The notes: generated from the sequence alone by a model not told the origin. Positions 23,292-58,020 are shown, counted from the stretch's first letter. The stretch: DNA of 64,000 bases from a virus (IMGVR_UViG_3300045996_003062:5551-69550); one strand, 5' to 3'. Made by a program: numbers and translations.

Positions 23292-23293
23292 CG

Positions 23294-23587: not shown

Positions 23588-23608
23588 ACCGAGAGAGAGG
23601 CTACGCGA

Positions 23609-24132: not shown

Positions 24133-24137
24133 TGCGC

Positions 24138-24209: not shown

Positions 24210-24269
24210 CTCACCCAAGCGAAAGAAGTGCACGTGACGGATCGTACGAGCGAGAGGCGGTACGCCCGG

Positions 24270-24788: not shown

Positions 24789-24862
24789 CGGAATCGGTAG
24801 ACGTACCCGCCTCAAAAGCGGGTGCCAGCGATGGCGTGCGGGTTCGAGTCCCGCCCCTGCTA
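24779..24862 (+). tRNA. tRNA-Leu (anticodon CAA)
   Basis: acceptor GGCAGGG/CCCTGCT (G1-U72), D-arm ACG-GAATCGGTAGA-CGT, anticodon arm CCCGC-CTCAAAA-GCGGG, variable arm GCCA-GCGA-TGGC, T-arm GCGGG-TTCGAGT-CCCGC. Confidence 0.75.
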
Positions 24863-24885
24863 CTCACCTACGGAAGCAAGAGCAC

Positions 24886-25212
24886 ATGAAGCGGATCGCG
24901 ATAGGAGAAGTGGTCCAGTGGACTTCGCAGTCGGCGGGAATCAAGACGGCGAAGCGGGGGGCGGTCCTCGCTTTCGTCGCAGATGGCGCACTGTCGGAGG
25001 GTGAGGGAGCGTTCCCCCGCACCTACACACCGTCGCACCCCGCCATCCCTGCGGGAACCCCCGCCGGCCGGTGCCAGTGGCGCTTTGACGGGTTCAGCGC
25101 CCGGCCCCGCTACCTGGTGGAAGTGCCCCGCGAGGGGAAGGCTCCTCTCTACTACGCTCCTCTTGCCTCTGTAGTAGAGGAGCAGAACCCCGACGCAGAG
25201 AGGACGCCGTGA
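24886..25212 (+). CDS. hypothetical protein
   Basis: internal ATG of track ORF 24748..25212, placed after tRNA-Leu. Confidence 0.45.
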   Translation: MKRIAIGEVVQWTSQSAGIKTAKRGAVLAFVADGALSEGEGAFPRTYTPSHPAIPAGTPAGRCQWRFDGFSARPRYLVEVPREGKAPLYYAPLASVVEEQNPDAERTP

Positions 25213-25374
25213 CTGAGCGACACCGCCGGAAGGTGCGCCGCCCCACGCTCGCGACGGCCGAGGCTGAGGACCACTTGCAGATCATGCGCCTGGAGGCGAT
25301 GGACGACGAGGTGGACGTGTGGAACGCGCAGCAGCTGCGCGACCTAGACTTCCCCAGCGACGGAGACGGACTCG

Positions 25375-25617
25375 ATGAGTGCTGACGCCGCGATGCGAGT
25401 GGAGGTGAGGCCCGGTCAGGTATGGGCCGACAATGACCCGCGGGCGAAGGGGCGGACGTTCCGCGTCATCGAGCGGCTGCCGAACGGCGCCCGGTGCGTG
25501 GTACTGACGGACCGGGAAGGTGCGAAGGTGTCCCGCGTCGGATGGGAGTTCCTGTGCCTCGCCCGTCGTTTCCGCCCCACCTCTTCGGGCTACCGTCTGG
25601 TAGAGGACGTGACGTGA
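25375..25617 (+). CDS. hypothetical protein
   Basis: track ORF. Confidence 0.4.
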   Translation: MSADAAMRVEVRPGQVWADNDPRAKGRTFRVIERLPNGARCVVLTDREGAKVSRVGWEFLCLARRFRPTSSGYRLVEDVT

Positions 25618-25886
25618 ACGAACCCGACAAGGTGCTGGACCTGAGCGCCTACCGCCAGCGTGCGCGGTCGAGGCATGAACACGCGACACCGGGAGAGCAC
25701 GATCCGCTTGCGGGCTGCCCGTTCTGCGGCGAGAGGGAGAAGCTGACGGTGCATACCGCGAGCGACGATGACATACCCGACGAGGTGCGCGCGGGAGTCT
25801 ATTGCTTCGGGTGCGACGCCAACGGCCCGCCCGCGGCAACAGAGCAGGAAGCAGCGCAGAAGTGGAACGCCCGTGCCACCGCCTGA
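25614..25886 (+). CDS. small zinc-binding protein, possible Lar-type restriction alleviation protein
   Basis: GCPFCGEREK ... CFGCDANG. Confidence 0.35.
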   Translation: MNEPDKVLDLSAYRQRARSRHEHATPGEHDPLAGCPFCGEREKLTVHTASDDDIPDEVRAGVYCFGCDANGPPAATEQEAAQKWNARATA

Positions 25887-25893
25887 CCCGCGC

Positions 25894-25965
25894 TCCTCCC
25901 TCGTCTAGCGGTGAGGACGCCGCCCTTTGAAGGCGGAGGCGCCGGTTCGATCCCGGCGGGAGGAT
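25894..25965 (+). tRNA. tRNA-Gln (anticodon TTG)
   Basis: U1-A72 acceptor TCCTCCC/GGGAGGA, D-arm GTCTAGCGGTGAGGAC, anticodon arm CCGCC-CTTTGAA-GGCGG, T-arm GCCGG-TTCGATC-CCGGC. Confidence 0.8.
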
Positions 25966-26492: not shown

Positions 26493-26630
26493 ACGACGCA
26501 GGTCGGTAGAGTGTCCGGAGCCCAGCGTAGCCGCTGGACGGTCTCCCGGCCGTACTCCCGCTGAAGGGGCGTAGCGTCCCCTCGGATGCTCCCGACCCGC
26601 GCACCTCACACACGACGGAGAGGCCGCCGC

Positions 26631-27842
26631 ATGATCCGCACGACGAACGCCGCCCTGAAGCTCGACGAGGTGGACCGCACGGAGTTCAGCGTCTCAGCGC
26701 GCGACGGTCGGGTGCTGACCGCCCCGCGCAAGTCGAAGTTCCGGTGGCTCTCCGCGGAGTACGGCGCGCGCTCCCTGTTGACGGACGCTGCGGGCAACGT
26801 GGTGTCCGCCGGCTTCCCCAAGTTCTTCAACCTTGGGGAGGACGCGACGTACGACGCGAGCTTCCGCCAAGCCCTCAGCGCGGGGGCGGTGACGTTCACG
26901 GACAAGGCGGACGGGACGCTCGTCATCGTGGACCGCATCGACGGCGAGCCGCACTTCCGGACCCGAGGCAACCACGACCTCGGCGTGTTCAGTGAACCGG
27001 TGATGGCGCTGGTGCGCGAGCGCTACCCCGCCCTTCTGGAGTGGGCAACGCGGCGGACGATGGCGGACCACTGGAGCTTGTTGCTGGAGTACACGGCTCC
27101 GGACAACCGCATCGTCGTGGCCTACAGCGAAGCCCGCCTGACGCTCCTCGGCGCGGTGGACAAGCGGACGCTCAACCCGATCATCGACGCTGCCCCGCTG
27201 GCGATGGTGGCGAGCACGATCGGCGTCGGCATGGTCGGGGCGTACAACCGAGAGAGCGCCGAGGATCTACTCCGGTCCGTCCGCGGGTGGAAGGACGGCG
27301 AGGGTGTGGTCGCCCGGTGGCACGACCCCGATCTCGGCCCGTGTCTCCTGAAGGTGAAGAGCGACTGGTACGTCGCGCTCCACGCGCTGCGGTTCCGGCT
27401 CTCTGACGCGCGGCTCCGGAAGTTCTGCTTCCTACGCGGCATTCACACGGAGGGTGACTTCGTGGACGCGCTGGCGGAGATGGGATACGACTTCGAGGCG
27501 ATGGAGTTCTTCCGCCAGCCGTTCGCGGAGTACGCGCATCGCCGCGCTTCCCTGCTCTTCGCGTTCCGCCCCTTCGTCGGTGACGCATGCATGCGGGAGC
27601 AACCGGACGAAGGGCGCCGCGCGTTTGTGGAACGGACCCGTGCGTACATCGCACAATTTGATCTCCCGCCGGAGTTCTTCGGCGCGGTCATGTGCGTCGC
27701 CAACGGGAAGGACGAAGACGCGATGCTGGCGGTAGAGGCGCTGGCGCTGGAGGAGCCGGTCAACACCGTCCGGCAGTGGGTGAGGAACCGGGACGCCGAG
27801 CTGGCCGCCATCCTGAAGGCGGACGTGGGAGACGACGGATGA
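26631..27842 (+). CDS. ATP-dependent RNA ligase (nucleotidyltransferase superfamily)
   Basis: RBS GGAGAGG; motif I KADGT (FTDKADGTLVIV), motif V-like EGVVARWHD...LLKVK. Confidence 0.6.
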   Translation: MIRTTNAALKLDEVDRTEFSVSARDGRVLTAPRKSKFRWLSAEYGARSLLTDAAGNVVSAGFPKFFNLGEDATYDASFRQALSAGAVTFTDKADGTLVIVDRIDGEPHFRTRGNHDLGVFSEPVMALVRERYPALLEWATRRTMADHWSLLLEYTAPDNRIVVAYSEARLTLLGAVDKRTLNPIIDAAPLAMVASTIGVGMVGAYNRESAEDLLRSVRGWKDGEGVVARWHDPDLGPCLLKVKSDWYVALHALRFRLSDARLRKFCFLRGIHTEGDFVDALAEMGYDFEAMEFFRQPFAEYAHRRASLLFAFRPFVGDACMREQPDEGRRAFVERTRAYIAQFDLPPEFFGAVMCVANGKDEDAMLAVEALALEEPVNTVRQWVRNRDAELAAILKADVGDDG

Positions 27843-33360: not shown

Positions 33361-33647
33361 CGGCCGAGACCGTCGCGTGGGTCATGGTGGTCGCCCTCTC
33401 AATCCTCGCAGGCTCGGCGTGGTACAGCGCTGTGGTGTGGATGCGGAAGGCCAAGAGGGCCGAGCAGGCCGCTCTCGATGCGGAGCGCCGCACTGCGATG
33501 GTCGCCGCAGTCGGAGCCCGCGCTCTCGCCGCAGCGTCGGCCGGCTTGACAGCGGCCCAGGACGCGATCGACCGGATAAACGCTCAGGCGGAGCAGTCGA
33601 ACACGGAGGCGTGGGTGCACGTGGCGAAGCTGACACCGCCGTGCTGA
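33357..33647 (+). CDS. membrane protein
   Basis: TM VAWVMVVALSILAGSAWYSAVVW. Confidence 0.4.
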   Translation: MTAETVAWVMVVALSILAGSAWYSAVVWMRKAKRAEQAALDAERRTAMVAAVGARALAAASAGLTAAQDAIDRINAQAEQSNTEAWVHVAKLTPPC

Positions 33648-33863
33648 GCCGCCAACGGCAAGAAAGCCCCCGGCAATTACGCCACTTCCGGCGCCCCGGC
33701 CAGGCTTCGGAGGGGGCTGTGTCAACCAAAGAGGAGGGGTCCCTCCTGGGTGCCATATGGCGGGAAACGCGCGAGTTTCGTGACGTTGTAGCGTCCCACT
33801 CACCAGAAACTCACTTCCGCTTCCTCTCCGGCACCCGGACGATCCGGCATAGGATCAAGCCAT

Positions 33864-38862: not shown

Positions 38863-41436
38863 ATGCCGATGCAGACCAGAGTACCGAGGCGAGTCCTACA
38901 AGCGGTGAACGGCACCCCGTTGGCCGTCACCGCTGCGAAGGCGGCGGAGGTGTCGGCGTTCCTGGCGGCCGTCGCGGCCGGCGAGCGGATGACGAAGGGG
39001 GCGGCCCGCCAGAAGTTCGGCGCCGCTCGTCGGCCCTCGCCGATGCAGGGTGGCGGCGTGGCGATAGTGCCGATTCACGGGACGATCGTTCACCGCATGG
39101 ACGGCATGTACTCCTCGCTCGGCACGAGCATGGAGCGGCTAGTTCGCCAGATCGACGCCGCCGAGGCCAACGACGACGTCGCCGAAATCATCTTCGACGT
39201 GGACTCCCCAGGCGGGTTCGTCTCCCTGGTCGGCGAGACGGCCGAGCGCATCCGGGCGATGAAGAAGCCCACCACCGCGGTCATCAACACACAGGGGTGC
39301 AGCGCCGCCTACGACCTCGCTGCGGCTGCTGACGAGGTGGTCATCTCCCCGTCAGGCGAGGCGTGCAGCATCGGTGTCTTCATGGTCCACATGGAGTTCT
39401 CCGAGATGGCCGAGCGGGAGGGTATCCGCCACACCGTCATCAAGTTCGGAGCGAACAAGGCCGAGGGGAACCCGTACGAGCCGCTGTCGCCCGAAGCACT
39501 CGCCCACATGCAGGAGCAGGTGGACGAGTTCGGCACCGCCTTCGTTGCGCGTGTCGCGAAGCATCGCGGCGTGACGCCGGCGCAGGTGCGGGAGCTGATG
39601 GGCGACGGCCGCTCGCTGACCGCGAAGCAGGCTGTGAAGGCGAAGGCCGCTGATCGCGTGGCCTCGTTCGAGGATGTCCTCGCCGAGCGCGGAGTCCGCC
39701 GTTCCGCCTCCGCGCGAGCCGCGATGGAGCTTCCCGCTCGCGCCGCCCTGGCCGCGACAGCCGGCTGGAACGTGGACTGGCGGCCTCTCGCCGTCGCCCC
39801 GCGGGTCCAGATCCTCGTGCCTTCGCACCTTGCCGCGGCCGAGCCCACGACTGAAGAGCCGGAGATGTGCCCCGACTGCGGCGAGGACCTGGACGGCGAA
39901 GGCGCGTGCCCGGAGTGCGCCGATGCGGAAGCCGCGAGCGTGACGCCGATGTCGGAGACGCCCCGGGCTGGGGTGGTGGAGACGCCGCCCGCCGAGCAGG
40001 CCCAGGCACCGCCGGGCGGAACGCAGGACGCCGCGAGTACCGAGACGACTGAAGAGCCGAGCGCGGGCGGGGCCGCGGCACCGGCAGCGAATGACCCCCC
40101 CGCATCCCAACCGGCCCCCGAGGCCAGGAGTTCGACCATGGCTGAGAACATGGAGCAGGTCCCGGCCGCCGGGGCCACTGCGGTGCAGGACACGGCCGCC
40201 GCCGTTGCAGCGGAGCGCCAGCGGATCTCGGAGGTGACTGCGATGGCGATGGAGTACAACGTCGACGCCACCACACTCGCCGCGTGGCAGAACAACCCGA
40301 ACGCGACGCTCGGATCCGTCTCGCAGGAGATCCTTCGGCGCAACAAGGAGGCTGACGCCGCTCGCCCCTCCATCGCCGTGGGCGCGGACCGCGCGACCAC
40401 GAGGGCGTGGAGCAGCTTCGGTGAGCAGCTTACGGCCATCGCCGAGGCGGCGCGGCCGGGCGGGCGCACCGACCCGCGGCTCTACGCTGCCTCCGGCGCG
40501 TCGGCGGGCGTCGGCAGCGACGGTGGGTTCCTCATCCAGAAGGACTTCTCGTCGGAGGTCTACGAGAAGGCGTACGAGACCGGCATCCTCGCCTCCCGCT
40601 GCGACCAGGTGGAGATCAGCGAAAACTCCGACGGGCTGGAGGTGCCGTACATCGACGAGACCTCGCGCGCCAACGGCTCGCGCTGGGGTGGCGTCCGCGT
40701 GTACCGCCGCGCCGAGGCCGCCACCGTGACCGCGTCGAAGCCGGCGCTCGGCAAGTTCGAGGTCCGGCTGGAGGACCTGATGGGCATCGCCTACGCGACC
40801 GGCCGGCTCCTCCAGGACGCGACCGCGCTGGAGCAGGTGATGACCCGGGCGTTCTCGTCCGAGTTCGCGTTCAAGCTGGACGACGAGATCATCCGCGGCA
40901 CCGGCGCAGGGGAGTGCCTGGGCGTGCTCAACAGCCCGGCCCTCGTGTCCGTCGCGAAGGAGACCGGGCAGACCGCCGACACGATCGTCGCGGAGAACGT
41001 GCAGAAGATCTGGGCGCGCACCTGGGCTCGCAGCCGCACCAACGGCGTCTGGCTCTACAACCAGGAGTGCGAGCCGCAGCTTCAGTCGATGCAGATCGGC
41101 ACCGGCACCTCGGCGCAGCTCGTCTACCTGCCCGCGGGCGGCCTCTCCGGCCAGCAGTTCGCCACGATCTACGGGCGCCCCGCTCTGCCGATCGAGCAGG
41201 CGTCCGCTCTCGGCGACCTGGGCGACATCATGTTCGTCGACCTCGCCGAGTACGCCCTGATCCGCAAGGGCGGGATGCAGGCCGACCAGAGCATGCACGT
41301 CCGGTTCATCTACGACGAGATGGCCTTCCGCTTCATCATGCGCGTGAACGGCAAGCCCAAGTGGGCCTCGGCCCTCACCCCGTTCAAGGGCAGCGGTACG
41401 CAGTCGCCGTTCGTCGCCCTCGCGGCTCGCGCCTAA
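38863..41436 (+). CDS. fused prohead protease (S49/ClpP-like), scaffold/linker and HK97-fold major capsid protein
   Basis: single 857 aa ORF; N-terminal S49 peptidase region; zinc ribbon CPDCGEDLDGEGACPEC; C-terminal HK97 capsid core. Confidence 0.7.
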   Translation: MPMQTRVPRRVLQAVNGTPLAVTAAKAAEVSAFLAAVAAGERMTKGAARQKFGAARRPSPMQGGGVAIVPIHGTIVHRMDGMYSSLGTSMERLVRQIDAAEANDDVAEIIFDVDSPGGFVSLVGETAERIRAMKKPTTAVINTQGCSAAYDLAAAADEVVISPSGEACSIGVFMVHMEFSEMAEREGIRHTVIKFGANKAEGNPYEPLSPEALAHMQEQVDEFGTAFVARVAKHRGVTPAQVRELMGDGRSLTAKQAVKAKAADRVASFEDVLAERGVRRSASARAAMELPARAALAATAGWNVDWRPLAVAPRVQILVPSHLAAAEPTTEEPEMCPDCGEDLDGEGACPECADAEAASVTPMSETPRAGVVETPPAEQAQAPPGGTQDAASTETTEEPSAGGAAAPAANDPPASQPAPEARSSTMAENMEQVPAAGATAVQDTAAAVAAERQRISEVTAMAMEYNVDATTLAAWQNNPNATLGSVSQEILRRNKEADAARPSIAVGADRATTRAWSSFGEQLTAIAEAARPGGRTDPRLYAASGASAGVGSDGGFLIQKDFSSEVYEKAYETGILASRCDQVEISENSDGLEVPYIDETSRANGSRWGGVRVYRRAEAATVTASKPALGKFEVRLEDLMGIAYATGRLLQDATALEQVMTRAFSSEFAFKLDDEIIRGTGAGECLGVLNSPALVSVAKETGQTADTIVAENVQKIWARTWARSRTNGVWLYNQECEPQLQSMQIGTGTSAQLVYLPAGGLSGQQFATIYGRPALPIEQASALGDLGDIMFVDLAEYALIRKGGMQADQSMHVRFIYDEMAFRFIMRVNGKPKWASALTPFKGSGTQSPFVALAARA

Positions 41437-45178: not shown

Positions 45179-45489
45179 GCCTCGAAGAGACGTGGGCCGT
45201 CGCAGTGTACGACCTGCGTCTCTCCGAGGAAGCGTTCGGGCGAATCACCCCGGTGCTGTTCGCGCAACTGCTGGAGCGTCACGCGCAGGCCCAGCGGGGC
45301 GCGATGCTCCGCGCCGGCCTGGTGGCTGCGGCCGTCATCAACTCGCAGGGCGGGATCAAGGGGCGAGCGGTCACGCCCCAGGAGATGATCGGCGAGGAGG
45401 AGCCCATGCAGGACATCTCCGCGTTCATCGGATTGCTTGAGGCGAACGGGGTAGAGTTGGAGCGGGGCGAGGCGGAGGTGGAAGGATAG
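44825..45489 (+). CDS. tail assembly chaperone GT-like fusion via programmed -1 frameshift
   Basis: slippery heptamer C CCT TTG at 45157-45163 in the zero frame; the -1 frame is open from there into ORF 45205..45489. Confidence 0.5.
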
Positions 45490-45490
45490 A

Positions 45491-45526
45491 AGCGGGGCCG
45501 CAGGCATCGCGCCTGCGGCCCCGCTC
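45491..45526 (+). terminator. perfect 14 bp GC hairpin after the GT stop
   Basis: GCGGGGCCGCAGGC-ATCGC-GCCTGCGGCCCCGC. Confidence 0.45.
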
Positions 45527-45574
45527 CTCTGCAACCATCCTGCCCCGCCAGACCTCACCTTGACTCGCCGTAAC

Positions 45575-45795
45575 AAGCCTTGCCATGCCTGCCCCACCTC
45601 GCCTCTCCATGCCTAGCCGCACCTGCCGAGCCATGCCATGCCTCGCCATGCCGCGCCACGCCTCGCGAGGCCTTGCCTGCCTCGCCGTGCCCCTCCTCAC
45701 CTCACCACGCCAAACCATGCCTAGCCGCGCCTGCCGGCCCTGCCGTGCCTAGACTTACCATGCCCGTCCTCGCCATGCCATGCCTGCCGCGTATC
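45575..45795. repeat. degenerate microsatellite of CCATGCC / GCCTSGCC units
   Basis: at least 9 CCATGCC copies in 220 bp of noncoding DNA between convergent units. Confidence 0.55.
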
Positions 45796-45801
45796 GCCGA
45801 T

Positions 45802-46290
45802 CTACGCTGCTGGGTTCCCTACCCTGTCGATCTCCGCAAAGATGGATGCCAACTCCGACAGGTGCTCGTAGCGCTTCCTCCACTGCTTCGCCTCGTCCAT
45901 CGCCCGGAACACGACCTGGCGGCGCAGGTCCGCGTCCGACATCGCGACGACGGTGGAAGTATATCCGCGCTCCTCGTTCTCCACCACGCTCACGAAGGCG
46001 CGCACCGCCACCGGCGCCGCCTTCGTCTCGGCGCGGTCCACTCGTACGACGACGGAGCGGATGAGTTGGCGCGCCTGCACCTCCCGGTAGCGCTCCGCCG
46101 CCGCGCCGTCGTTCCACTCGAAGCAGGGGTGGAGCGGCGAAGCGATGTCGCGCGCATCCTCGACGACCTGGCCGGGAGCCAGCGAGCCTCCAGCCTCGAC
46201 CCGCAGTGCCTCCAGGCGCTCGCCGATGACCTGCGCGTCGCCGGGAATGCGCGCGTCCGGTTTCCACTCGTATCTGTACACCATCGCCAT
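45802..46290 (-). CDS. moron operon gene 4, hypothetical protein
   Basis: RBS GGAGGG; 3 nt after upstream stop. Confidence 0.55.
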   Translation of the reverse strand: MAMVYRYEWKPDARIPGDAQVIGERLEALRVEAGGSLAPGQVVEDARDIASPLHPCFEWNDGAAAERYREVQARQLIRSVVVRVDRAETKAAPVAVRAFVSVVENEERGYTSTVVAMSDADLRRQVVFRAMDEAKQWRKRYEHLSELASIFAEIDRVGNPAA

Positions 46291-46293
46291 CGG

Positions 46294-46923
46294 TCAGCCC
46301 TCCGCCTCGGTCGCGACGTGAAACATGCCGAAGGAGCCGTCCTTCGCCGGTCGCCACTCGCCGACGCCGATCGCGAAGCCTGCGGTGTTGAACAGGTTCA
46401 CGATCTGCTCCGCGGAAAGGACGCCGGCGTTGTGGCGGACCGGGAGGACGACAGACCACGCCTTGAACTCCGCGCGGTGGCGGATGTCGGCCGTCCCCAT
46501 CCCGATGCGGACCATGTCCTCGCGAATCTCGGGAGATCCGTGGATCTCCACAAACTCGCCGGTGACGTGGAACGCGCCGCGCGCTTGGACCTTCGTGACG
46601 CCCTCGATGTGCGAGCACGCGTCCACCGCCGCGGCCTTGAAGCCGACCACCGGGAAGCCGAAGCGCGCGGCCGCGACGTCCTCCGGGCTCGGGTTCGCGG
46701 GACGCGGGCTCAGCCAGTACAGCGAGTCGCAGTAGTCGCGGAACGGGTCCTTGGCCTCCTTCGCTGCCTTCGCCTTCTTCATCTGCTTGTCCAGCATCAT
46801 CTTCTTCGCCTTGTCGCTCCATGCGTGCACGATCAGCGGCGAGTCGCCGACGAGCTTGATGTGCAGCGTGCGCAGGTCCAGCCTGGGGAGTTCGATCGAC
46901 TCGGCCTGAGGGATACGTGCCAT
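46294..46923 (-). CDS. moron operon gene 3, hypothetical protein
   Basis: start MARIPQ with RBS GAGAGG; track ORF 46294..46992. Confidence 0.55.
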   Translation of the reverse strand: MARIPQAESIELPRLDLRTLHIKLVGDSPLIVHAWSDKAKKMMLDKQMKKAKAAKEAKDPFRDYCDSLYWLSPRPANPSPEDVAAARFGFPVVGFKAAAVDACSHIEGVTKVQARGAFHVTGEFVEIHGSPEIREDMVRIGMGTADIRHRAEFKAWSVVLPVRHNAGVLSAEQIVNLFNTAGFAIGVGEWRPAKDGSFGMFHVATEAEG

Positions 46924-47017
46924 GTGCGTGACCTCTCGTGAGTATGGGGGGAGAACGATGCAGGGATACGCGCCGGAAAGCAATGGCTCCACCGGGGCGC
47001 ATCCCTGCGATGGTTGC

Positions 47018-47434
47018 CTACCGCAGCACCGCGGCGAGATCGAACTTCCCGTCGTGGTCTAGCCGCAGGTCCTGACGGAGCGAGTCCAACGCGGCGCAGA
47101 CGAGCGCGTCGTGGTCCGCCTCCAGCCGGGTGTCGGTCGACAGCGACACGAGCGCGCAGACCCGTCCCGCGAAGACCCCCCACTTCTCGTTCCACTCGTT
47201 GTCCTTCGCCCAGTTGGCGCGGAGCCCGTCCCGGAGGCCGTGCCAGTCGTCGCGGAGCTGCGTCCACGTCGGCTGGATGTGCTCAGTCATCTGCGGCGGA
47301 TCGGTCTCGCCGTCCACCCGCACCCGGTCCGCCATCGCGAAGAACGGGGCGAGCCGGGCGTCCACGTACAGAACCGCCGCGGCGGAGACCGGCATCCCCT
47401 CGGCGCTCGCCGCCTTCCAGTCGCCGCGGCTCAT
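47018..47434 (-). CDS. moron operon gene 2, hypothetical protein
   Basis: start MSRGDW with RBS GGAGGG; ATGA overlap with gene 1. Confidence 0.55.
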   Translation of the reverse strand: MSRGDWKAASAEGMPVSAAAVLYVDARLAPFFAMADRVRVDGETDPPQMTEHIQPTWTQLRDDWHGLRDGLRANWAKDNEWNEKWGVFAGRVCALVSLSTDTRLEADHDALVCAALDSLRQDLRLDHDGKFDLAAVLR

Positions 47435-47598
47435 CGGACGCCCTCCGCGTCGGCGTCCATGCACCACCCGCAGACCCCCGCCGGCTCCCCCGCAACGACC
47501 GTGGCGAACATCGGCTCCCACTCCCGCATCTCACGCGCGCAGATGTAGCACGTCGCCTCCGTGCCCGCCTTGCGCTCCACCACTACCGCTGCGCTCAT
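47431..47598 (-). CDS. moron operon gene 1, small zinc-ribbon protein
   Basis: CYIC...CGWC; RBS GGAGGG. Confidence 0.5.
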   Translation of the reverse strand: MSAAVVVERKAGTEATCYICAREMREWEPMFATVVAGEPAGVCGWCMDADAEGVR

Positions 47599-47738
47599 GT
47601 GCACCCTCCGGCTGTTGACCCGGCCGACGGCGAGGGCGAGATTGAGCACGCCGGGCCTTCGGGTCTGGTGAGTTTGGGGGAGTCGGCGCGTGTCTCTTGG
47701 AGGGGATGTCGCGTCGGCTCCCTTGTTCTTCCTCGCTC

Positions 47739-47790
47739 GTGTCAATATACTCTATAGACAGAGCGTGTCAATAGCCACAGTAGACAGGCA
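47739..47790. promoter_or_regulatory. divergent promoter/operator; lowest-GC patch of the window
   Basis: minus strand TTGACA-N16-TATATT (-35 at 47766-47771, -10 at 47744-47749); + strand TATACT at 47746-47751; two 26 bp direct repeats starting GTGTCAATA at 47739 and 47765. Confidence 0.5.
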
Positions 47791-48012
47791 ATGGAATTCC
47801 GCGAGGCGGTGGCAGTGCTGGGCCAGACGGTCACAACGGCCGAGATTGCGGATGCAGCCGGGGTCTCGGTGGACTCCGTCCGCCAGGCGAGGCTGAGGCC
47901 GGGAGGGTCTGGCTATCGACCTCCTCCGCAAGGATGGAGGGATGTCGTCATCCGGCTCGCGGAGGAACGAATCCGGCGGCTGGAGCAACTGGTGAAGGAG
48001 CTGAGGGGCTAA
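47791..48012 (+). CDS. small HTH regulator
   Basis: TTAEIADAAGVSVDSVRQARL. Confidence 0.5.
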   Translation: MEFREAVAVLGQTVTTAEIADAAGVSVDSVRQARLRPGGSGYRPPPQGWRDVVIRLAEERIRRLEQLVKELRG

Positions 48013-48105
48013 CGCCCTTCGGCTCCTTTTCGCTTGCGAAACTGTCGCGAGAGGCGCTACCGTGTGAGCCCCTAGGAGCGCAGTGTCCCCTCCCCCCTCC
48101 GCCTC

Positions 48106-48810
48106 ATGCGCCGCTACCTGCTCGCCGCCATCGCTGCCGCCTCGCCGCTTCTCACCTCGTGCGCCATGGGCGCGCACGGCGCAAGATACGAATTGTCGCT
48201 CCAACGGGTGGAGCGGCCGGCTGACGCGACCGCGCAGTACGGCGCCCAGCGCGTGGACCGAATCGCAGATGCGGCAGGTAGGCAGTTCCGCTTCTCGGAC
48301 GACGTGGTCGAGGTCGAGTGGACCGTGACCAGCGAACGCATCGGGCTTCGCCTCAGAAACAAGTCCGACCACAGCATCCGAGTCCTCTGGGACAACGCTG
48401 CATACGTGAGCCCGGATGGCGTAAGCCACCGTGTTATGCACACGGGCGTGCCTTACGCATCCCGGAACGAGCCGCAGCCGCCAAGCGTCGTGGTTCGGGG
48501 AGGCGAGATCCGCGACGAGATCGTCCCCACCGACTATGTGTTCCTTGCAACCGCCGTGAACTGGGAGACACGTCCGTTCCTGCAACTTGTCGGCGGCAAT
48601 CCCGAGAAGCAGTCAGAGGCCCTGGTCGGCAGGACGGTGCGGGTACTGCTCCCGCTGGAGATTCGGGGCGTTCAGAACGACTACCTGTTCACGTTCGGCA
48701 TCGACCGCGTATGCTTCTGGCCGCCGAGGTACGACGCGCTCGGTCGTATGTTCGTTCCAGAGCCGAAGAACCAGAAGTGCGTACCTGCGGTTGCGGCGGA
48801 CAAGGCGTAG
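48106..48810 (+). CDS. lipoprotein
   Basis: signal peptide with lipobox LLTSC. Confidence 0.6.
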   Translation: MRRYLLAAIAAASPLLTSCAMGAHGARYELSLQRVERPADATAQYGAQRVDRIADAAGRQFRFSDDVVEVEWTVTSERIGLRLRNKSDHSIRVLWDNAAYVSPDGVSHRVMHTGVPYASRNEPQPPSVVVRGGEIRDEIVPTDYVFLATAVNWETRPFLQLVGGNPEKQSEALVGRTVRVLLPLEIRGVQNDYLFTFGIDRVCFWPPRYDALGRMFVPEPKNQKCVPAVAADKA

Positions 48811-48904
48811 CAGCCTTAGGGCGCTCGGCTCGACCGCGGCGACCGCGAAGTGTGCGCAGCAGCCAGAATGGCTCGGTGGAAATCCCGTCACCCCAGGGCC
48901 CAAC

Positions 48905-49240
48905 GTGAGGACTCGCCACCTGCTGCTTGCTGTCGCAGTGTGCCCGCTAGTCGCATCCGGATGCGCAGGCCTCGGTGACATCTCGGCGGCTCCGGACGTC
49001 GCCGCTGCCCAGGAAGCCTGTAACAAGGAAGTCACGTCACGCTTACTCGCTCCTTCGCAGGCCGTGGTCCAGCCGGACCCGCTCCGGCTGCGGGAGCCGT
49101 ATGACAACGAGAACGTGTACAGATCCTCGTTCTACGTGGATGCTCCGAACGCGTACGGAGTGATGCTCCGCTCCCGGCATTCGTGCGTCGCCGTTGCCGA
49201 AGAAGACGGATGGTACGTTGTGTCCGTGAAGGATGAGTGA
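48905..49240 (+). CDS. lipoprotein
   Basis: GTG start; lipobox LVASGC. Confidence 0.5.
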   Translation: MRTRHLLLAVAVCPLVASGCAGLGDISAAPDVAAAQEACNKEVTSRLLAPSQAVVQPDPLRLREPYDNENVYRSSFYVDAPNAYGVMLRSRHSCVAVAEEDGWYVVSVKDE

Positions 49241-49249
49241 ACCTTCCCG

Positions 49250-49370
49250 TTGAGCCGGCGGCGCAGATGTAGTAGATTACAAGCCATAGGGGCGCAGGCC
49301 CCGTGACGGACCCGTACGTGGGGGCCGTGCTGGAATCTTCGGATTCCGGCACGGCCCTTTTCGCGTTTCT
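49250..49370 (+). promoter_or_regulatory. repeated late promoter-like plus structured leader element, copy 2
   Basis: TTGAGC-N17-TAGATT, then the same CAAGCCATAGGGG...CGTGACGGACCCGTACGTGGGGGCCGTG box and UUCG hairpin as copy 1. Confidence 0.45.
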
Positions 49371-49372
49371 AC

Positions 49373-52300
49373 ATGCGGACCATGGCAAATCCCACGCTCC
49401 TCATTCGCATCGCAGGCGACATCGCAGACCTCCAGCGGAAGACGCAGGAGGCGAACGCGCTGGTTGCCAACGTCGCGACGCGGATGCAGCAGATGGGTAC
49501 GCAGATGACCGCCGCACTGAGCGTTCCGCTCATCGCGCTCGGGGCCATCTCGGTGCGCTCCGCGGTCCAGGTGGAGTCCGCGTTCAACGCAGTGAAGAAG
49601 ACGACGGGCCAGAGCGCCGAGGAAATCCAAGCGCTCAAGGTTGCGTTCAAGGAAATGAGCGAGGGGTTCGCTGTCCAAGGGGGCGTAAAGCAACTCGCCT
49701 CCATCGCAGCGACGGCCGGGCAGCTTAACGTCGCCGCTCAGTTCATGGAGGAGTTTGTCCAGACGACGGCGAGGCTGGATGTTGCGGTCGAATCGCTGAG
49801 CGCAGAGGAAGCGGCCACGGGGCTCGCGCAGTTCGCGAACATCACGCGGACGTCACAAGCCGAGTTCGACAACCTCGCCTCGGCGCTTGTCGACCTTGGC
49901 AACAACGGCGCGTCCACTGAACGCGCCATCATGGACATGGGTCTGCGGCTGGCCGGCGCGGGCGCTCAGGTCGGCATGTCGCAGGGCCAGATCCTCGGCT
50001 TTGCCAACGCTTTGGCGTCAGTGGGGATTGAGGCGGAGAGCGGCGGCAGCGCGTTCAGCCGCTTGTTCGCTGAGATCGGGAGCGCAGCCGCCAGCGGCGG
50101 AAAGCAACTGGAGAAGTTCGCCCGTGTCGCTGGGACTCCGACGGCTGCATTCCGGGAGTTGGCGAAGACGGATTCGGCCGCGGCAGTCATCGCCTTCGTG
50201 GAAGGCCTGAAGCGGTTGAAGGATCAGGGTGAAAACGTCTTCGCGGTCTTGGAGAACCTAGGCATCTCGGAGATCCGGATGCGGGACGCGCTCCTCCGCG
50301 CGGCGGGCGCAGGCGACCTCCTCCGCGAGAGCGTAGAGCGTGGTTCGCGTGCGTACGCGGAGAACACCGCGCTGGCGAAAGAGGCGGACCAGGCGAACCA
50401 GAGCACGGCGGCGCAGTTCCAGCGACTCCGGAATGCGGCGGAGAACGTGGTCGCGGAGTTCGGCGAGGGGCTTCTCCCTGCGTTCCGTACGATGATCGAA
50501 GTGCTGCGGGCCGCGGTCGAGCCGCTTCGCGCGGTCATGGCCGGGTTCGGGGCGTTGCCAGAGTGGGTTAAGGGCACGACCGTAGCCGTAGCTGCCCTCG
50601 CGGTCGCGATCGGCCCTGCGATGCTGGCGGTCTCCGGACTCGCCCGCGCCATGCTGGTCCTGCAAACTGCTGCGGCGGTCGCGACGGTCGGCATGGCGGG
50701 ATTCCGTAACGTCATCGCAGCCGTGTCACTGGTGTCGTCAATCCGCTCCGCAGCCGATGCAACGGCCCTGCTAAAAATGTCGCTGGGCGGGCTCGCCGGT
50801 CTCGTCTCGCCCGGCGGGCTAGTGATGGTGGGGCTCGCCGCCCTCGCAGTTCTTTTCGTGAACGCGGGCCGCCGCGCGCAGGAAGCTGCACGCGCCGCTC
50901 AGGAGGCCGCAGATAAGTTCCGCACCGCCTTGGCGGGTATGGGGCTGGCATCCATTCACATCGAGTTGGATGTCAAATACGAACGCCGGAAAACTCTCCG
51001 CTCGGCCTTGCCCCAGCGCATGGCTGAACAGGAGGCCGAGGATGCACGCATGGCCGGCGCCAGGGCGCGCGCCGGCCGCGGCGCCGTATCGCTTGAGGAC
51101 TCGCCTGAGGCGCGGGAGAGACGCAAGTGGATCGCAGACTCTCTGGAGGAACTACAGAGACTCGACCGCGAGATCAACGAGTTGAACGAGCGGGCGGTGG
51201 CGATTGGGGTGGAGGAAGAGAAGCTCCGCGCCGTCGTCGGAGCCGGACCCGCGTCGGGGCTGGACACCGTCACGGAGGGCACGGAGAAGAAGAAGCAGCC
51301 GTACGAGGACCTTCGACGCCGCATTGAGGGGACGGCCGAGGCGTTGCAGTACCTGCGCACCAAGGTGCGCGAAACGAGCGATTACGCGCAGATGGTGGAG
51401 GCGCTTGACACGCTTACCGCCGCGCAGGCGGAGGCGGCCAAGGAAGCGAGCCGCCACGGCCTTGCGATTACCGACGAGGCGCGCGCCGCTCGACAACTCG
51501 CCACGGCCGCGCGGGAGGCCGCCGCGGGAGCCGGGATGGCGCCGGACTTCACGCTCCAGAACAGCTTCGGAGTCAAGCCGCCGACCGCGTTCATCGATCC
51601 CGACGAGTACCGTCGTAGGTTCGGCGTCCCCGCGCTCCAAGACGCGTCAGACGCAGCCGAGCTCTTCGACCAGCGCTTGGAAGAGTTGGCCCAGCGGGTG
51701 CGCGGGCTTTCGTCCTTGGGCCGGGTGTTTGGAGCCTTCGGCAACTCCCTCGCGAGGGTCGCCGACGATGCGGCCAACCTCATCTCAGGATTCAAAGACC
51801 TCGGGAGTGTCGGCGGTGGCGTGACTGGCATCCCGTCGATGACTGAGTTGCTGACCAGCGGTCCCGGCTTGCAGGTGATGGGTGCCATTGGGTCGCTGGC
51901 AAGCGGGCTGCTCGGAAGCATGTTCGGGGAGTCGGAGGCAGAGCGCGAGCGGAACAACCTGATGCGCCAGAACAACCAGGCGCTGAAGGATCTGACCGCC
52001 CGCGCCGCCGGGCTGATGGTGTCCGGCAACTCGCTCGTCGCCGCGCGCGGCGCCCTCGGCGGCGTCACCGCGTCGGGCCTGAGCAGCCTGAAGGGGCTGG
52101 GCCTGGGCGCCGTCAACGGGTCGAATCAGCGGGCGTTCCTTGAAGGGATCGGGATGTCGCTGGCGCAGCTCAAGCTCATCGCGGAGAGCGCCGGCATCAC
52201 GATCGTGGACGAGCAGGGCCGGCTCATTGGGGCAGCGCTGAAGCAGCTCGGGGAGGCGATTGGGCCGCTGATCGACACACTCACGAAGTTCAACAAGAAC

Positions 52301-55965: not shown

Positions 55966-58020
55966 ATGGCCGTCAGTCTGGACACACCACTGTCTGCACG
56001 AGTCCACGACCGTGGGGGCGCGTTCACCCACGTCTCGGGGTTCGCGGCGGTGGGCGACGGGAAGCAGGCGACCGGCGGGGCGATGACCAGCGCCTCGGCC
56101 GTGCTGACGACGACGGCGGGGACCGCGTTCACCGCGGCGCACGTCGGGAAGGAGATCCGCGTGCCGGGCGCCGGTGCGGCGGGGGCGGAGCTGGTGACGA
56201 CCATCAGCGCCTACACCTCGGCGACGCAGGTCACGCTCACCGTGGCGGCCTCCACGACCGTCGCGTCCAAGACGATCACGTGGGGGACGAACGACACCGT
56301 GGCGATCGCGACGGCTGCCGCGGCTGCGACTGCGCTGGGCTCCACGACGCTCGTCTTCAACCACGGCGTCACCGGCAAGTACATGGTGGACAGCACCTTG
56401 TCGCTGTCCGGGTTCACACTGGTCGGGGACGGCAGCCCGTCGTTTCTCGGGGTCGCGGACACGATATCCAACTGGAACACGTCGTCGTCCACCAACGCCA
56501 TCACCATCCGGAGCCAGGCGTGGTCCGCTGTGGCTCCCACTCTCAACCAGGTGCCGGTATGGGACGGCTCGCAGTGGGTGCCGGGTGCCACTGCTTCGTC
56601 GGCGTCCATCACGCAGGGCGGCGGCACGGCATCCATCAACGGCAGCGGCGCAATCTCCCTCGCCCCGGCGGCGGGCCAGGGCGTGTCGGCTCCTACGAAC
56701 GGCGTGGCAGACACGGTCTCCATCGGCCCTGCCACGGCCAGTGCGCAGTTCACGTCGGCAGTGGGGAAGATCGCGACCGCCACCGGCTCCGCGGCCTCGT
56801 CGTTCGGCTACAACGCCCGGGCGCAGGTCGCGTCGGGCACGGCCATCGGGGCCAACGCGCTGGCCTCCACCGCGAGCGGCGCCACGGCGCTGGGGGCGGA
56901 CTGCACGGCGTCCGCGACCAACGCCCTCGCGATCGGAAAGAGCGCCACCGCCTCCGCCTCGTCCTCGATCGCCATCGGCAGCAGCGCCGCGGCGGCCAGT
57001 GCGTCAGGCATCTCCATCGGAACGTCCACCTCGTCGGGCGTGGATGCGGTGGCGATCGGTGCGTCGGCCAACGGGAACCAGACTAACGCCACGATCGTGG
57101 GGAAGTCAGGGTCCGCCACCGGCGCCAACAGCGTCGGCGTCGGGAAGTCGTGCGTGGCGGCGTCGGAGTGCGTGGCGATCGGCTCGGGGGCCAGCACGAC
57201 GGCGAACCAGAACGTGTGCGTCGGGATGACGTCGTCCGTCTCGGCTGCGTCGTGCGTCGTTATCGGGCACACGGCGTCATCCGCGTCCAGCAAGAGCATC
57301 GTGATCGGCCGCGACGCGTCCTCCATCTCGACGGAGACGGAGACGGTCGTCATCGGCTACCAGGCCAAGGCGTACACCGACGCCACGATCCCGTCCACGG
57401 GCGGCGGGCAGAACGTGGCGATCGGCGCCTACGCCGAGGCGGGGTGCTACCGCGGGACGGCGATCGGCTGGAAGGCGAAGGCGTGGGAGGTGTCGGCCAC
57501 CGCCATCGGCCGCGGCGCGCTCGCGACGGGGTCGCACTCGGTTGCGATCGGACGCGGCGCATGGGCGAACGTGGACAACACGATCTCCATCGGGTTCTCC
57601 GGGGCGAACGCGGCCTCCCACATCTATTTCGAGTCCGGGCACACCCACAAGTACGTGGACTTGGACGGCAGCACGATCACCCGCGTCCCGGCGTCCACGC
57701 CGATCGTGCTGCACGGGTTCGACGCGTACGACGCCACCGCCAGCGTCAGCAACGTGGCGGGGGGTCCGCTCCAGCTCGCGGGCGGGGCACCGACGGGGAG
57801 CGGAACGGCGGGGACGGTGGACGTGCAGACGGCCGGTGCCGGGGCCGGCGGGAATGTGAAGGGTACGCTGGTCACCGTTGCGCAGTTCGATCACAGCTCG
57901 ACCGCAGGAGATACGCGCATGCTCCTGTGGGATGTGACGGCGGGAAGTCTGAAGCGCGTGAGCATCGGCGCCGCCGACTCGGGTGGAACCGGATTCAAGC
58001 TGCTCCGCGTCGCCAACTAA
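55966..58020 (+). CDS. tail fibre with pectate-lyase-like N-terminal region and YadA-head-like Ala/Ser/Gly repeats
   Basis: repeated ...SVAIG.GA.A... units; 684 aa. Confidence 0.65.
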   Translation: MAVSLDTPLSARVHDRGGAFTHVSGFAAVGDGKQATGGAMTSASAVLTTTAGTAFTAAHVGKEIRVPGAGAAGAELVTTISAYTSATQVTLTVAASTTVASKTITWGTNDTVAIATAAAAATALGSTTLVFNHGVTGKYMVDSTLSLSGFTLVGDGSPSFLGVADTISNWNTSSSTNAITIRSQAWSAVAPTLNQVPVWDGSQWVPGATASSASITQGGGTASINGSGAISLAPAAGQGVSAPTNGVADTVSIGPATASAQFTSAVGKIATATGSAASSFGYNARAQVASGTAIGANALASTASGATALGADCTASATNALAIGKSATASASSSIAIGSSAAAASASGISIGTSTSSGVDAVAIGASANGNQTNATIVGKSGSATGANSVGVGKSCVAASECVAIGSGASTTANQNVCVGMTSSVSAASCVVIGHTASSASSKSIVIGRDASSISTETETVVIGYQAKAYTDATIPSTGGGQNVAIGAYAEAGCYRGTAIGWKAKAWEVSATAIGRGALATGSHSVAIGRGAWANVDNTISIGFSGANAASHIYFESGHTHKYVDLDGSTITRVPASTPIVLHGFDAYDATASVSNVAGGPLQLAGGAPTGSGTAGTVDVQTAGAGAGGNVKGTLVTVAQFDHSSTAGDTRMLLWDVTAGSLKRVSIGAADSGGTGFKLLRVAN

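What the first reader, a model, noticed from the sequence alone, without database searches (positions are those of the whole stretch)
45802..49240. Self-regulated moron cassette between the tail chaperone genes and the tape measure gene
A roughly 3.4 kb block interrupts the otherwise + strand late operon. It holds four tightly coupled minus-strand genes (47431-47598, 47018-47434, 46294-46923, 45802-46290). Each has a GGAGGG ribosome-binding site, and the first is a small zinc ribbon. They are driven from a near-consensus sigma70 promoter (TTGACA-N16-TATATT). That promoter lies in the lowest-GC patch of the window and overlaps two 26 bp direct repeats that begin GTGTCAATA (47739-47790). Divergently, a small HTH regulator (47791-48012) and two lipoproteins (48106-48810, 48905-49240) are encoded. 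None of the four minus-strand proteins shows a motif I can assign. An unrecognised family in the classic moron site, with its own host-type promoter, operator-like repeats and surface lipoproteins, is the usual signature of a prophage-encoded superinfection-exclusion, defence or host-modulation system. This is the strongest candidate in the window for an undescribed system.
Basis: partly seen in the sequence, partly recalled or inferred. Interest (0 to 1): 0.7.

Follow-up and report, generated by a model that had tools for sequence, protein, structure and literature searches.

The report
Phage-encoded VIPR RNA-guided silencing system

Summary
The observed features are real: four minus-strand genes, a near-consensus promoter, operator-like repeats, a divergent small HTH gene and two lipoproteins. 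The claim of an "undescribed system" is not supported.

- **Vipr.** The 209-aa protein is a Vipr, the RAMP/Cas7-like protein of VIPR systems (bioRxiv 10.64898/2026.04.26.720920). It matches the solved SUSP1 Vipr, has a Cas7/Csm3 fold, and conserves the GGY-binding residues.
- **Partner.** The 162-aa protein is its conserved partner, found in 78 of 88 related loci. It has a weak winged-helix-like fold.
- **Array.** It has six units, each an exact multiple of 5 nt and each ending in GGCAG. An 18-bp hairpin closes it.
- **Targets.** Under the published 1-nt-skip rule, guide v1 matches the conserved IIDRIKYT codons of gpE-like major capsid genes exactly (117 of 120 viral hits). Guide v3 matches a virion fibre/decoration domain at 18–19 of 20 positions. 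No self-target exists.
- **Other genes.** The zinc ribbon, the 138-aa orphan, the HTH and the lipoproteins are locus-specific.

Verdict: a new member of a known kind.

The parts
47744..47771 (-). Predicted sigma70-type promoter (TTGACA-N16-TATATT) for the vipr operon
   Evidence: 11/12 match, the only hit in 45,400–49,500, against 0.3 expected. Function is inferred, not shown.
47738..47787 (.). Two 24-nt operator-like direct repeats, each an imperfect palindrome TGTCAATA-N5-TAnAGACA, covering the −10 and −35 hexamers
   Evidence: family D1, 79 % identity, 26-nt spacing. Binding by the neighbouring HTH protein is inferred only.
47791..48012 (+). Divergent 73-aa putative HTH protein. Candidate regulator of the operon; locus-specific.
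   Evidence: sub-threshold HTH_15, Sigma70_r3/r4 and TetR_N hits; no homolog in 88 related loci. Other VIPR loci carry unrelated HTH/Cro-like genes upstream.
47431..47598 (-). 55-aa CxxC…CxxC zinc-ribbon-like ORF, first gene of the operon. Variable cargo, not a conserved VIPR part.
   Evidence: GC3 0.89, GGAGGG RBS; only a weak phrog_27988 hit; no homolog in related loci.
47018..47434 (-). 138-aa orphan protein, second gene of the operon
   Evidence: GC3 0.95; no family; only itself found among 5.8 billion proteins; absent from related loci.
46294..46923 (-). vipr: 209-aa RAMP (Cas7-like) protein that would coat the GGY repeats of the vrRNA
45802..46290 (-). vap-like accessory gene: 162-aa protein with a winged-helix-like domain, the conserved partner of this Vipr clade
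45540..45798 (-). vrRNA array of GGY-NN pentamers in a staggered layout, where units share one G at each GGCA[G] boundary. Units: leader remnant 45,784–45,798; v1 45,740–45,784 (9 pentamers); v2 45,731–45,740 (2, vestigial); v3 45,677–45,731 (11); v4 45,623–45,677 (11); v5 45,589–45,623 (7); v6 45,540–45,589 (10).
   Evidence: sequence; the only place in 64 kb, on either strand, with ≥8/12 GGY in 5-nt register; all six units are exact multiples of 5 nt; same arrays and boundary motif in related loci, 15,782 array bases on the vipr strand against 70 on the other.
45488..45528 (.). 18-bp perfect GC-rich hairpin. Probable bidirectional terminator closing both the vipr operon/array and the convergent tail chaperone genes.
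   Evidence: ΔG −62.2 kcal/mol, z −5.6, 0 of 200 shuffles as stable. It lacks a long U tract, so one search did not score it as a terminator.

Best explanation
The locus is a VIPR (Viral Interference Programmable Repeat) system carried by a temperate siphovirus-like phage. It is inserted as an opposite-strand cassette between the tail chaperone genes and the tape measure gene.

Proposed mechanism:
1. A sigma70-type promoter at 47,771→47,744 transcribes one operon: two locus-specific small ORFs, vipr, a winged-helix-like accessory gene, and a ~260-nt array of GGY-NN pentamers. The operon ends at an 18-bp hairpin. The promoter is overlapped by two palindromic repeats and is probably controlled by the divergent 73-aa HTH protein.
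2. The array is cut at the GGCAG|G boundaries into about five guide RNAs of 7–11 pentamers.
3. Vipr protomers polymerise along each guide, one per pentamer. They sequester the GGY bases and present the NN dinucleotides.
4. The filament binds double-stranded DNA whose sequence matches NN-x-NN-x…, the 1-nt-skip rule, and blocks transcription there.
5. Guide v1 is aimed at the conserved IIDRIKYT codons of lambda-gpE-like major capsid genes. Guide v3 (and perhaps v5) is aimed at a conserved AY(I/M)FVEEGT motif of virion fibre/decoration proteins. In both cases the skipped base falls on the codon wobble position.
6. This phage's own capsid belongs to a different family and the window holds no self-target. 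The system would therefore silence late structural genes of competing phages or satellites in the same cell.

Shown here: homology, fold, conserved contact residues, array anatomy, family-wide co-occurrence, and target matches. Inferred from the preprints or from anatomy: transcription, processing, RNP formation, repression, and regulation by the HTH.
For: **Vipr identity**
- Profile hit to the solved SUSP1 Vipr, E 1.2e-7.
- hhalign to a type II Vipr, probability 96.9 %.
- H33, R150, R191 and the G-loop glycines are invariant, with E189 for D177 and W190 for W178. These align with the published GGY contacts H17, R138, D177, W178 and R179.

**Array**
- It is unique in the window.
- Its six units are all multiples of 5 nt with a 1-nt overlap. 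This matches the paper's 'staggered arrays'.
- In 88 related loci, 76 have arrays next to vipr, almost exclusively on its strand (15,782 against 70 bases).
- 179 of 268 units are in frame, with a mode of 9–13 pentamers and composition G95 G88 Y93 N N.

**Partner gene**
- Present in 78 of 88 loci, with a winged-helix-like fold.

**Targeting rule, validated independently in this clade**
- A Sphingomonas soli guide matches ≥15/16 NN in the vipr genes of 40 loci.
- Shuffled guides give a mean of 0.11 such hits, and skip 0/2/3 give 0–1.

**Targets of the window's guides**
- v1 gives ≥120 exact viral hits. Of these, 117 lie in gpE-like capsid ORFs (PF03864, phrog_1005 E 7e-99), in frame, with median contig GC 0.62.
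- Three other 16-base patterns gave 14, 24 and 100 hits.
- v3 gives 10 of 14 hits in one fibre/decoration family.
- No self-target exists.
- The phage's own capsid is a protease–HK97 fusion.
Against: - There are no expression, processing or binding data for this locus.
- The promoter, operator and terminator are sequence predictions.
- v4 and v6 gave only heterogeneous, chance-like hits, v5 was too short to scan, and v2 is a 2-pentamer remnant.
- v3 has no perfect match, and its hits lie in 0.32–0.54 GC contigs.
- Several pentamers are degenerate (GGACG, GTCTA, CGCGA, GGAGG, GTTAC, GTCAA).
- The host is unknown, so it is not shown that phages carrying the targeted capsid infect the same host.
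- The VIPR type number could not be assigned because the paper's data files are not held.
- VIPR biology rests on two preprints, and experimentally on type II systems (sRNA-seq also for types III and V).
Confidence: 0.88

Rival explanations
1. One reading: a four-gene protein-only defence or superinfection-exclusion system of an undescribed family. It would work with the two lipoproteins at the cell surface, and no RNA component would be involved.
For: - The cassette has its own promoter and operator-like repeats.
- Two lipoproteins lie next door.
- There are no Pfam, NCBIfam or PADLOC hits.
Against: - Only two of the seven proteins recur in related loci. The zinc ribbon, the 138-aa orphan, the HTH and both lipoproteins are absent from all 88.
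- The conserved protein is a Vipr homolog with a RAMP fold.
- A strand-specific GGY-NN array accompanies it family-wide.
- Its guides match foreign capsid genes.
Confidence: 0.04
2. It is a VIPR system, but it serves the phage's own gene regulation or lysis–lysogeny control. It would target the phage's own or the host's genes rather than competitors.
For: - It sits behind cro-like or repressor genes in many relatives.
- Here it has a dedicated operator and HTH.
- VIPR acts by transcriptional repression.
- Only 64 kb of a 97-kb contig and no host genome could be searched.
Against: - No site in the window exceeds shuffled-guide background. The best is ≤68 % of NN positions at any skip length.
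- The paper also found no self-targets.
- v1 and v3 match structural genes of families this phage does not carry.
Confidence: 0.05
3. The vipr/vap genes are real, but the array here is decayed or non-functional. On this view the capsid match is a relic.
For: - There is a vestigial 2-pentamer unit.
- Several pentamers are degenerate.
- v5 looks like v3 with two deletions.
- v4 and v6 gave only chance-like hits and v5 could not be scanned.
Against: - All units keep perfect 5-nt register and GGCAG ends.
- The vipr contact residues are intact.
- v1 matches its target exactly at 16/16 positions in ≥117 capsid genes.
- A degenerate pentamer (GTCCG) still pairs in the S. soli anti-vipr guide.
- The paper notes frequent internal degeneracy in vrRNAs.
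Confidence: 0.03

Closest known systems
VIPR systems with staggered vrRNA arrays (bioRxiv 10.64898/2026.04.26.720920, Fig. S18; type number not determinable from the text held)
   Same: - A Vipr RAMP protein plus one adjacent accessory gene.
- An array of GGY-NN pentamers on the same strand.
- Successive vrRNAs overlap by 1 nt, so the end of one marks the start of the next.
- Phage or prophage location.
- Guides aimed at other mobile elements, with no self-targets.
   Different: - The array lies downstream of the accessory gene. That is the commonest layout in my 88 loci, but others have it upstream or between the genes.
- Two extra orphan ORFs sit in the operon.
- A dedicated divergent HTH and operator-like repeats are present.
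- The cassette is inserted in the tail chaperone–tape measure slot.
- The guides with identifiable targets hit conserved capsid and fibre motifs.
Type II VIPR (Escherichia phage SUSP1, Pseudomonas fulva prophage), the experimentally characterised systems
   Same: - Homologous Vipr: hhalign probability 96.9 % over the C-terminal third, with conserved H, R and G-loop D/E-W-R contacts.
- GGY-NN guides of 9–16 repeats.
- The 1-nt-skip logic.
- An accessory protein predicted to bind DNA.
   Different: - About 27 % identity overall.
- The partner is unrelated in sequence to Vap1.
- There is no conserved 3' tail or pseudoknot after each guide. Units instead end in GGCAG and abut directly (one search shows both layouts side by side).
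- D177 is E here.
CRISPR-Cas class 1 backbone proteins (Cas7/Csm3/Cmr4) and type IV-A CRISPR interference by transcriptional repression
   Same: - One protomer per short RNA period.
- Periodic unpaired bases.
- Binding-based silencing rather than cleavage, as for type IV-A; this last point is my recollection, not checked here.
   Different: - No repeat–spacer CRISPR array and no recognisable cas genes among the annotated neighbours.
- 5-nt period with only 2 pairing bases.
- Gapped 3-nt periodicity on the DNA.
- Encoded by a phage.
Classical prophage morons and superinfection-exclusion genes near tail genes (for example lipoproteins of the Cor/Llp type)
   Same: - Opposite-strand, separately promoted insert in the late operon.
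- Presumed benefit against competing phages.
- The two adjacent lipoprotein genes may be of this kind.
   Different: - Specificity comes from programmable RNA guides against internal genes of the competitor, not from receptor blocking.
- The lipoproteins are not conserved with the system.

Membership tests
VIPR system | Vipr protein homologous to published Vipr proteins | tested here: met
   The family profile hits PDB 36pp_D 'SUSP1 Vipr protein', E 1.2e-7. hhalign against the SUSP1-clade Vipr of phage Alf5 gives probability 96.9 %, E 1.6e-10.
VIPR system | Minimal RAMP fold: single RRM core, glycine-rich loop, thumb | tested here: met
   [not shown]
VIPR system | Residues that recognise the GGY bases (SUSP1 H17, R138, D177, W178, R179) | tested here: met
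   They align with H33, R150, E189, W190 and R191. H33, R150 and R191 are invariant across clades. D→E is conservative, and W is Y in two relatives.
VIPR system | Adjacent vrRNA: at least 4 tandem YNNGG/GGYNN repeats on the vipr strand in intergenic DNA | tested here: met
   About 50 pentamers lie at 45,540–45,798 on the minus strand, the only such run in 64 kb.
VIPR system | GGY conserved and NN hypervariable across the clade | tested here: met
   179 in-frame units from related loci give G 95 %, G 88 %, C/T 93 %, and near-even composition at positions 4–5.
VIPR system | Conserved vipr-accessory (vap) gene next to vipr | tested here: met
   The 162-aa family is present in 78 of 88 loci, and directly downstream on the same strand in 76. 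It has a winged-helix-like fold. Which of vap1–6 it is could not be determined; it is not Vap1.
VIPR system | Guides match other mobile elements under the 1-nt-skip rule, skip base on the codon wobble, no self-targets | tested here: met
   v1 matches 16/16 in 117 gpE-like capsid ORFs, in frame. v3 matches 18–19/20 in a fibre/decoration family. The self-scan is at background. v4 and v6 gave only chance-like hits, and v5 was too short for a collection scan.
VIPR system | vrRNAs expressed, bound by Vipr, and repress transcription of matching DNA | not testable with these tools
   This needs small-RNA sequencing, a pull-down and a reporter assay. It was shown only for other VIPR systems in the preprints.
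VIPR type II (SUSP1 / P. fulva) | Each vrRNA ends in a conserved structured 3' tail, and the accessory gene is vap1 | tested here: not met
   Units abut with a GGCAG|G overlap and have no tails, whereas the Alf5 arrays show tails. hhalign of the partner against Vap1 gives probability 0.2 %.
VIPR types III–V | Accessory gene encodes a predicted nuclease or helicase, with enrichment of types III and V in defence islands | tested here: not met
   The partner is a 162-aa winged-helix-like protein with no nuclease or helicase match. The locus sits inside a phage late operon.
CRISPR-Cas | Repeat–spacer array and cas gene set (adaptation and effector genes) | tested here: not met
   No Cas hit for the seven cassette proteins in Pfam, NCBIfam or PADLOC. 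The annotated neighbours are phage tail and head genes. The only repeat array has a 5-nt period. No dedicated CRISPR-repeat search of the window was run.

The most novel reading that the evidence does not exclude
This locus may represent a regulated VIPR variant that the preprint does not describe. It would have three features:
- A guide set aimed at invariant peptide-coding motifs of virion structural genes (capsid, fibre). That would give broad-spectrum, mutation-resistant exclusion of whole phage families.
- A dedicated HTH/operator switch that ties expression to the prophage state.
- Two orphan co-transcribed proteins (a zinc ribbon and a 138-aa protein) acting as new accessory or vrRNA-processing factors.

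It could even fall outside the seven published types.
Probability: 0.15. Interest if true: 0.65.

Novelty: new member of a known kind. Interest (0 to 1): 0.5.

Why it matters
VIPR is a newly described RNA-guided DNA-recognition system and a proposed ancestor of the CRISPR RAMPs. Natural examples with readable guides and identifiable targets are how its biology gets worked out.

This locus offers several things:
- **A clean guide–target pair.** v1 pairs with the IIDRIKYT codons of gpE-like capsid genes, which can be tested directly.
- **A design principle.** Wobble-skipping lets one guide cover a whole protein family despite synonymous drift.
- **Scale and annotation.** The clade is very large: 4,768 clusters at 50 % identity, spread across many bacterial phyla and actinophages. 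It is unnamed in every source seen here, and in at least one GenBank phage record the array is annotated as a protein-coding gene.
- **A possible regulatory layer.** The promoter, operator and HTH are worth testing.

Tried and rejected
- **Family libraries.** Pfam, NCBIfam and PADLOC gave nothing above threshold for the seven proteins.
- **Rfam.** Only sub-threshold miRNA noise on the hairpin.
- **Exact collection scans for full-length guides.**
  - v4: 1 viral hit at 44 % GC.
  - v3: 0 viral hits and 2 metagenome hits at 34 % and 48 % GC, with no consistent frame.
  - v6: 2 viral hits at 32–34 % GC.
  - All were judged chance matches.
- **Relaxed v4 and v6 patterns.** Hits were heterogeneous. 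Three near-identical 0.60–0.61 GC contigs matched v4 at 8/10 NN, which is not convincing.
- **Convergence of guides.** v3–v6 do not converge on the ±5 kb around the capsid genes hit by v1.
- **Shared neighbours.** None were found between the window and related loci.
- **Small upstream ORFs.** Those of the nearest relative, L094, are not homologous to the zinc ribbon or the 138-aa protein.
- **The window's own contig.** The exact-sequence look-up failed.
- **Foldseek against PDB.** It could not show the Vipr structures, because that library stops at 2026-04-08.
- **Type assignment (I–VII).** Impossible, because the paper's tree and data files are not held.
- **Host identification.** Failed; the terminase is ≤40 % identical to any cultured phage.
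- **Tail/assembly explanation.** Rejected for the four genes, because the pair occurs in early or immunity regions of other phages.


Full report
**1. Observation**

The window is a high-GC (~69 %) temperate phage. It carries an integrase at 8,326–9,996, a DnaC-like loader, terminase, portal, a protease–capsid fusion, tail terminator, major tail protein, chaperones and a 1,200-aa tape measure protein. Almost all of it is on the + strand.

Their GC3 of 0.88–0.95 is typical of coding sequence.

- The promoter TTGACA-N16-TATATT (47,771→47,744, minus strand) is the only consensus match in 4.1 kb, against 0.3 expected.
- The two 24-nt repeats at 47,738–47,787 overlap its −10 and −35 hexamers. Each is an imperfect palindrome.
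- The 73-aa ORF has only sub-threshold HTH hits.
- Both downstream ORFs have lipoboxes.

Small corrections:
- GGAGGG precedes three of the four genes, not all four.
- A 94-nt gap separates genes 2 and 3.
- The promoter patch is the second-lowest GC 60-mer of the window.

**2. What the conserved part is**

Two of the four proteins belong to PHROG families of unknown function: phrog_4652 for the 209-aa protein and phrog_15946 for the 162-aa protein. Searched by tblastn against 50,697 phage records, they hit exactly the same 33 records as neighbouring genes. These are Cheoctovirus mycobacteriophages, Gordonia phages and one cyanophage.
- In Saal and UmaThurman the pair follows the repressor/cro region.
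- In Gordonia phage ODay it lies between the tail assembly chaperone and the tape measure protein with divergent HTH genes. That is the same slot as here.

The 209-aa family is very large. It gives more than 7,600 hits in the word-indexed search and 4,768 clusters at 50 % identity with E ≤ 1e-3. No Pfam domain is recorded for any of the 120 listed hits, and no source gives them an informative name.

A profile of the family hits one solved structure, 36pp_D 'SUSP1 Vipr protein', at E 1.2e-7. That led to two 2026 preprints on VIPR systems, bioRxiv 10.64898/2026.04.26.720920 and .720927. They describe:
- a minimal RAMP protein, Vipr;
- one accessory gene, vap;
- vrRNAs made of alternating GGY/NN motifs, which recognise dsDNA through the NN bases with one target base skipped per repeat, and which repress transcription.

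Independent support for the Vipr assignment:
- hhalign to the SUSP1-clade Vipr of phage Alf5 gives probability 96.9 %.
- The residues the structural preprint identifies as GGY contacts are H17, R138, D177, W178 and R179. They align with H33, R150, E189, W190 and R191. H33, R150 and R191 are invariant across clades.

**3.

Four nucleotides after the stop codon of the 162-aa gene, the minus strand becomes a run of GGY-NN pentamers. It is the only place in the 64 kb, on either strand, where at least 8 of 12 consecutive 5-nt units begin with GGY.

The register breaks always follow GGCAG. If the last G is shared with the next unit, all six units are exact multiples of 5 nt: 45, 10, 55, 55, 35 and 50 nt. 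This is the 'staggered array' layout of the paper's Fig. [quoted passage not shown] The array ends at an 18-bp perfect hairpin with ΔG −62 kcal/mol and z −5.6.

The same arrays with the same GGCAG|G boundaries occur beside vipr in every phage locus I looked at. Their position varies: upstream in Saal, between the two genes in ODay and UmaThurman, and 1.1 kb long in a jumbo-phage contig.

Across the 88 loci (80 from a scan of named genomes plus the 8 fetched earlier, including the type II Alf5 locus):
- Vipr is present in all of them.
- The 162-aa partner is present in 78, and downstream on the same strand in 76.
- Arrays lie next to vipr in 76.
- Array bases number 15,782 on the vipr strand against 70 on the other.
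- Of 268 units, 179 are in frame where 20 % would be expected by chance. The mode is 9–13 pentamers and the composition is G95 G88 Y93 N N.

The order vipr → partner → array, as in the window, is the commonest layout (36 loci).

**4. What is not part of the system**

The zinc ribbon, the 138-aa protein, the HTH and both lipoproteins have no homolog in any of the 88 loci. The 138-aa protein is an orphan among 5.8 billion sequences.

Relatives also carry a few small, unrelated ORFs and an HTH/Cro-like gene upstream of vipr. An upstream regulator plus variable cargo therefore seems to be a recurrent theme, but the proteins themselves are not conserved.

**5. Targets**

No site in the window matches any guide above shuffled-guide background at skip 0–3. 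The paper likewise reports no self-targets.

To check the rule in this clade, I searched 138 guides from all loci against all fetched DNA.
- One Sphingomonas soli guide matches 16/16 NN in the vipr genes of 23 loci and ≥15/16 in 40 loci.
- Order-shuffled guides give a mean of 0.11 such hits, and skip 0/2/3 give 0–1.
- Every skipped base falls on a codon wobble position of the conserved EDMVR(V/I)GM motif.
- The guide's own vipr matches only 13/16, partly through an Arg CGN→AGG codon change.
- The window's vipr (46,498–46,522) matches 15/16.
- This analysis also showed that the terminal GGCAG is not part of the guide, and that degenerate pentamers still pair.

For the window's own guides:
  - 117 of the 120 lie in frame in ORFs homologous to lambda-gpE-like major capsid proteins (PF03864; phrog_1005, E 7e-99).
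  - The site encodes IIDRIKYT.
  - Median contig GC is 0.62, and 71 contigs have GC ≥ 0.60.
  - Three other 16-base patterns gave 14, 24 and 100 hits.
- **v3** (first eight NN) gave 14 hits. Ten lie in one family of virion fibre/decoration proteins at AY(I/M)FVEEGT, which is 18–19 of 20 guide positions.
- **v4 and v6** gave only chance-like hits. **v5** is too short for a collection scan. Full-length exact scans of v3, v4 and v6 gave only low-GC chance matches.

The phage's own capsid belongs to a different family.

**6. Mechanism and confidence**

The most likely reading (confidence ~0.88) is a functional VIPR operon that makes about five guide RNAs. Vipr filaments on these guides would bind and silence structural genes of competing phages or satellites.

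- Shown here: homology, fold, contact residues, array anatomy, co-occurrence and target matches.
- Inferred: transcription from the predicted promoter, processing at GGCAG|G, repression, and control by the HTH through the two palindromic repeats.
- Unknown: whether expression occurs in the lysogen or early in lytic growth.

**7. Comparison and novelty**

The locus meets every VIPR criterion I could test. It fails the type II criteria, because it has no 3' tail and no Vap1. It does not fit the nuclease or helicase types III–V. The type number cannot be assigned with the text held.

It is not a CRISPR-Cas system. No cas genes were recognised in the cassette or among its annotated neighbours, and the only repeat array found has a 5-nt period. 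I did not run a dedicated CRISPR-repeat search of the window.

It is therefore a new member of a known, very recently described kind. Points that may go beyond the preprints:
- the regulated cassette in the chaperone–tape-measure slot;
- guides aimed at invariant capsid and fibre motifs;
- the orphan co-transcribed ORFs;
- the widespread lack of annotation of this clade, including an array annotated as a protein-coding gene.

Interest is 0.5. The system is already explained in outline, though, and a specialist who knows the preprints would not be surprised.

Noticed in passing
L042 ~7,078–7,122 (+), Sphingomonas soli NBRC 100801, NZ_BCTZ01000003.1. Target site in the window at 46,498–46,522 (−).: An 'anti-VIPR' guide (nGAnGAnATnGTnCGnGTnGGnAT) matches 16/16 NN in the vipr genes of 23 loci and ≥15/16 in 40 loci, including this window's vipr at 15/16. 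The site is the conserved EDMVR(V/I)GM codons, with the skip base on the wobble position. The guide's own vipr matches only 13/16, through Arg AGG, V→I and M→L.
   Followed up: yes
L002 6,607–6,932 (Gordonia phage UmaThurman, NC_031249.1, annotated CDS gp40, 33,362–33,685): The annotated 'hypothetical protein' gp40, between the vipr and partner homologs, coincides with a GGY-NN vrRNA array. It is probably not a protein-coding gene. Cheoctovirus mycobacteriophages such as Saal carry the array in the 'intergenic' 250 nt upstream of gp51.
   Followed up: partly
window 45,589–45,623 (v5) and 45,677–45,731 (v3): Guide v5 (GC TA AT GA GA GG) reads like v3 (GC TA AT TT GT GA GA GG AC GA) with two 2-pentamer deletions. 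It may be a decayed duplicate, or a guide for an indel variant of the same target. Unit v2 (45,731–45,740) is only two pentamers long.
   Followed up: partly
window 48,106–48,810 and 48,905–49,240 (+): Two lipoprotein genes with lipoboxes LLTSC and VASGC have lower GC3 (0.80 and 0.72) than the surrounding genes. They have no homologs in related VIPR loci and only weak PHROG hits of unknown function. They are probably separate morons, possibly surface exclusion factors.
   Followed up: partly
window 56,211–57,623 (−): A second small minus-strand block of three ORFs (190, 181 and 58 aa; GC3 0.89–0.95) lies inside the + strand tail region. The two larger ORFs, the only ones searched, have no PHROG hit. 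It may be another moron-like insert.
   Followed up: no
window 22,801–25,965 (+) and 927–999 (+): The phage region holds a cluster of five tRNA genes: Ser-GGA, Ser-GCT, Glu-TTC, Leu-CAA and Gln-TTG. A tRNA-Thr lies near the left end of the window.
   Followed up: no
window 38,863–41,436 (+): A single 857-aa ORF combines a head maturation protease (phrog_53) with a major head protein (phrog_10). This fused protease–capsid gene belongs to a different capsid family from the one guide v1 targets.
   Followed up: no
window 26,586–27,842 (+); L007 6,779–7,918: An RNA-ligase-like gene (phrog_562) occurs in this phage. In a 215-kb jumbo-phage contig, an RNA ligase gene lies immediately upstream of vipr, and the vrRNA array there is 1.1 kb long. 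Whether RNA ligases have anything to do with vrRNA biology is unknown.
   Followed up: no
window 14,789–14,848 and 20,655–20,754: These are the lowest-GC patches of the window, at 0.37 and 0.47. They may be further regulatory or origin regions, and were not examined.
   Followed up: no
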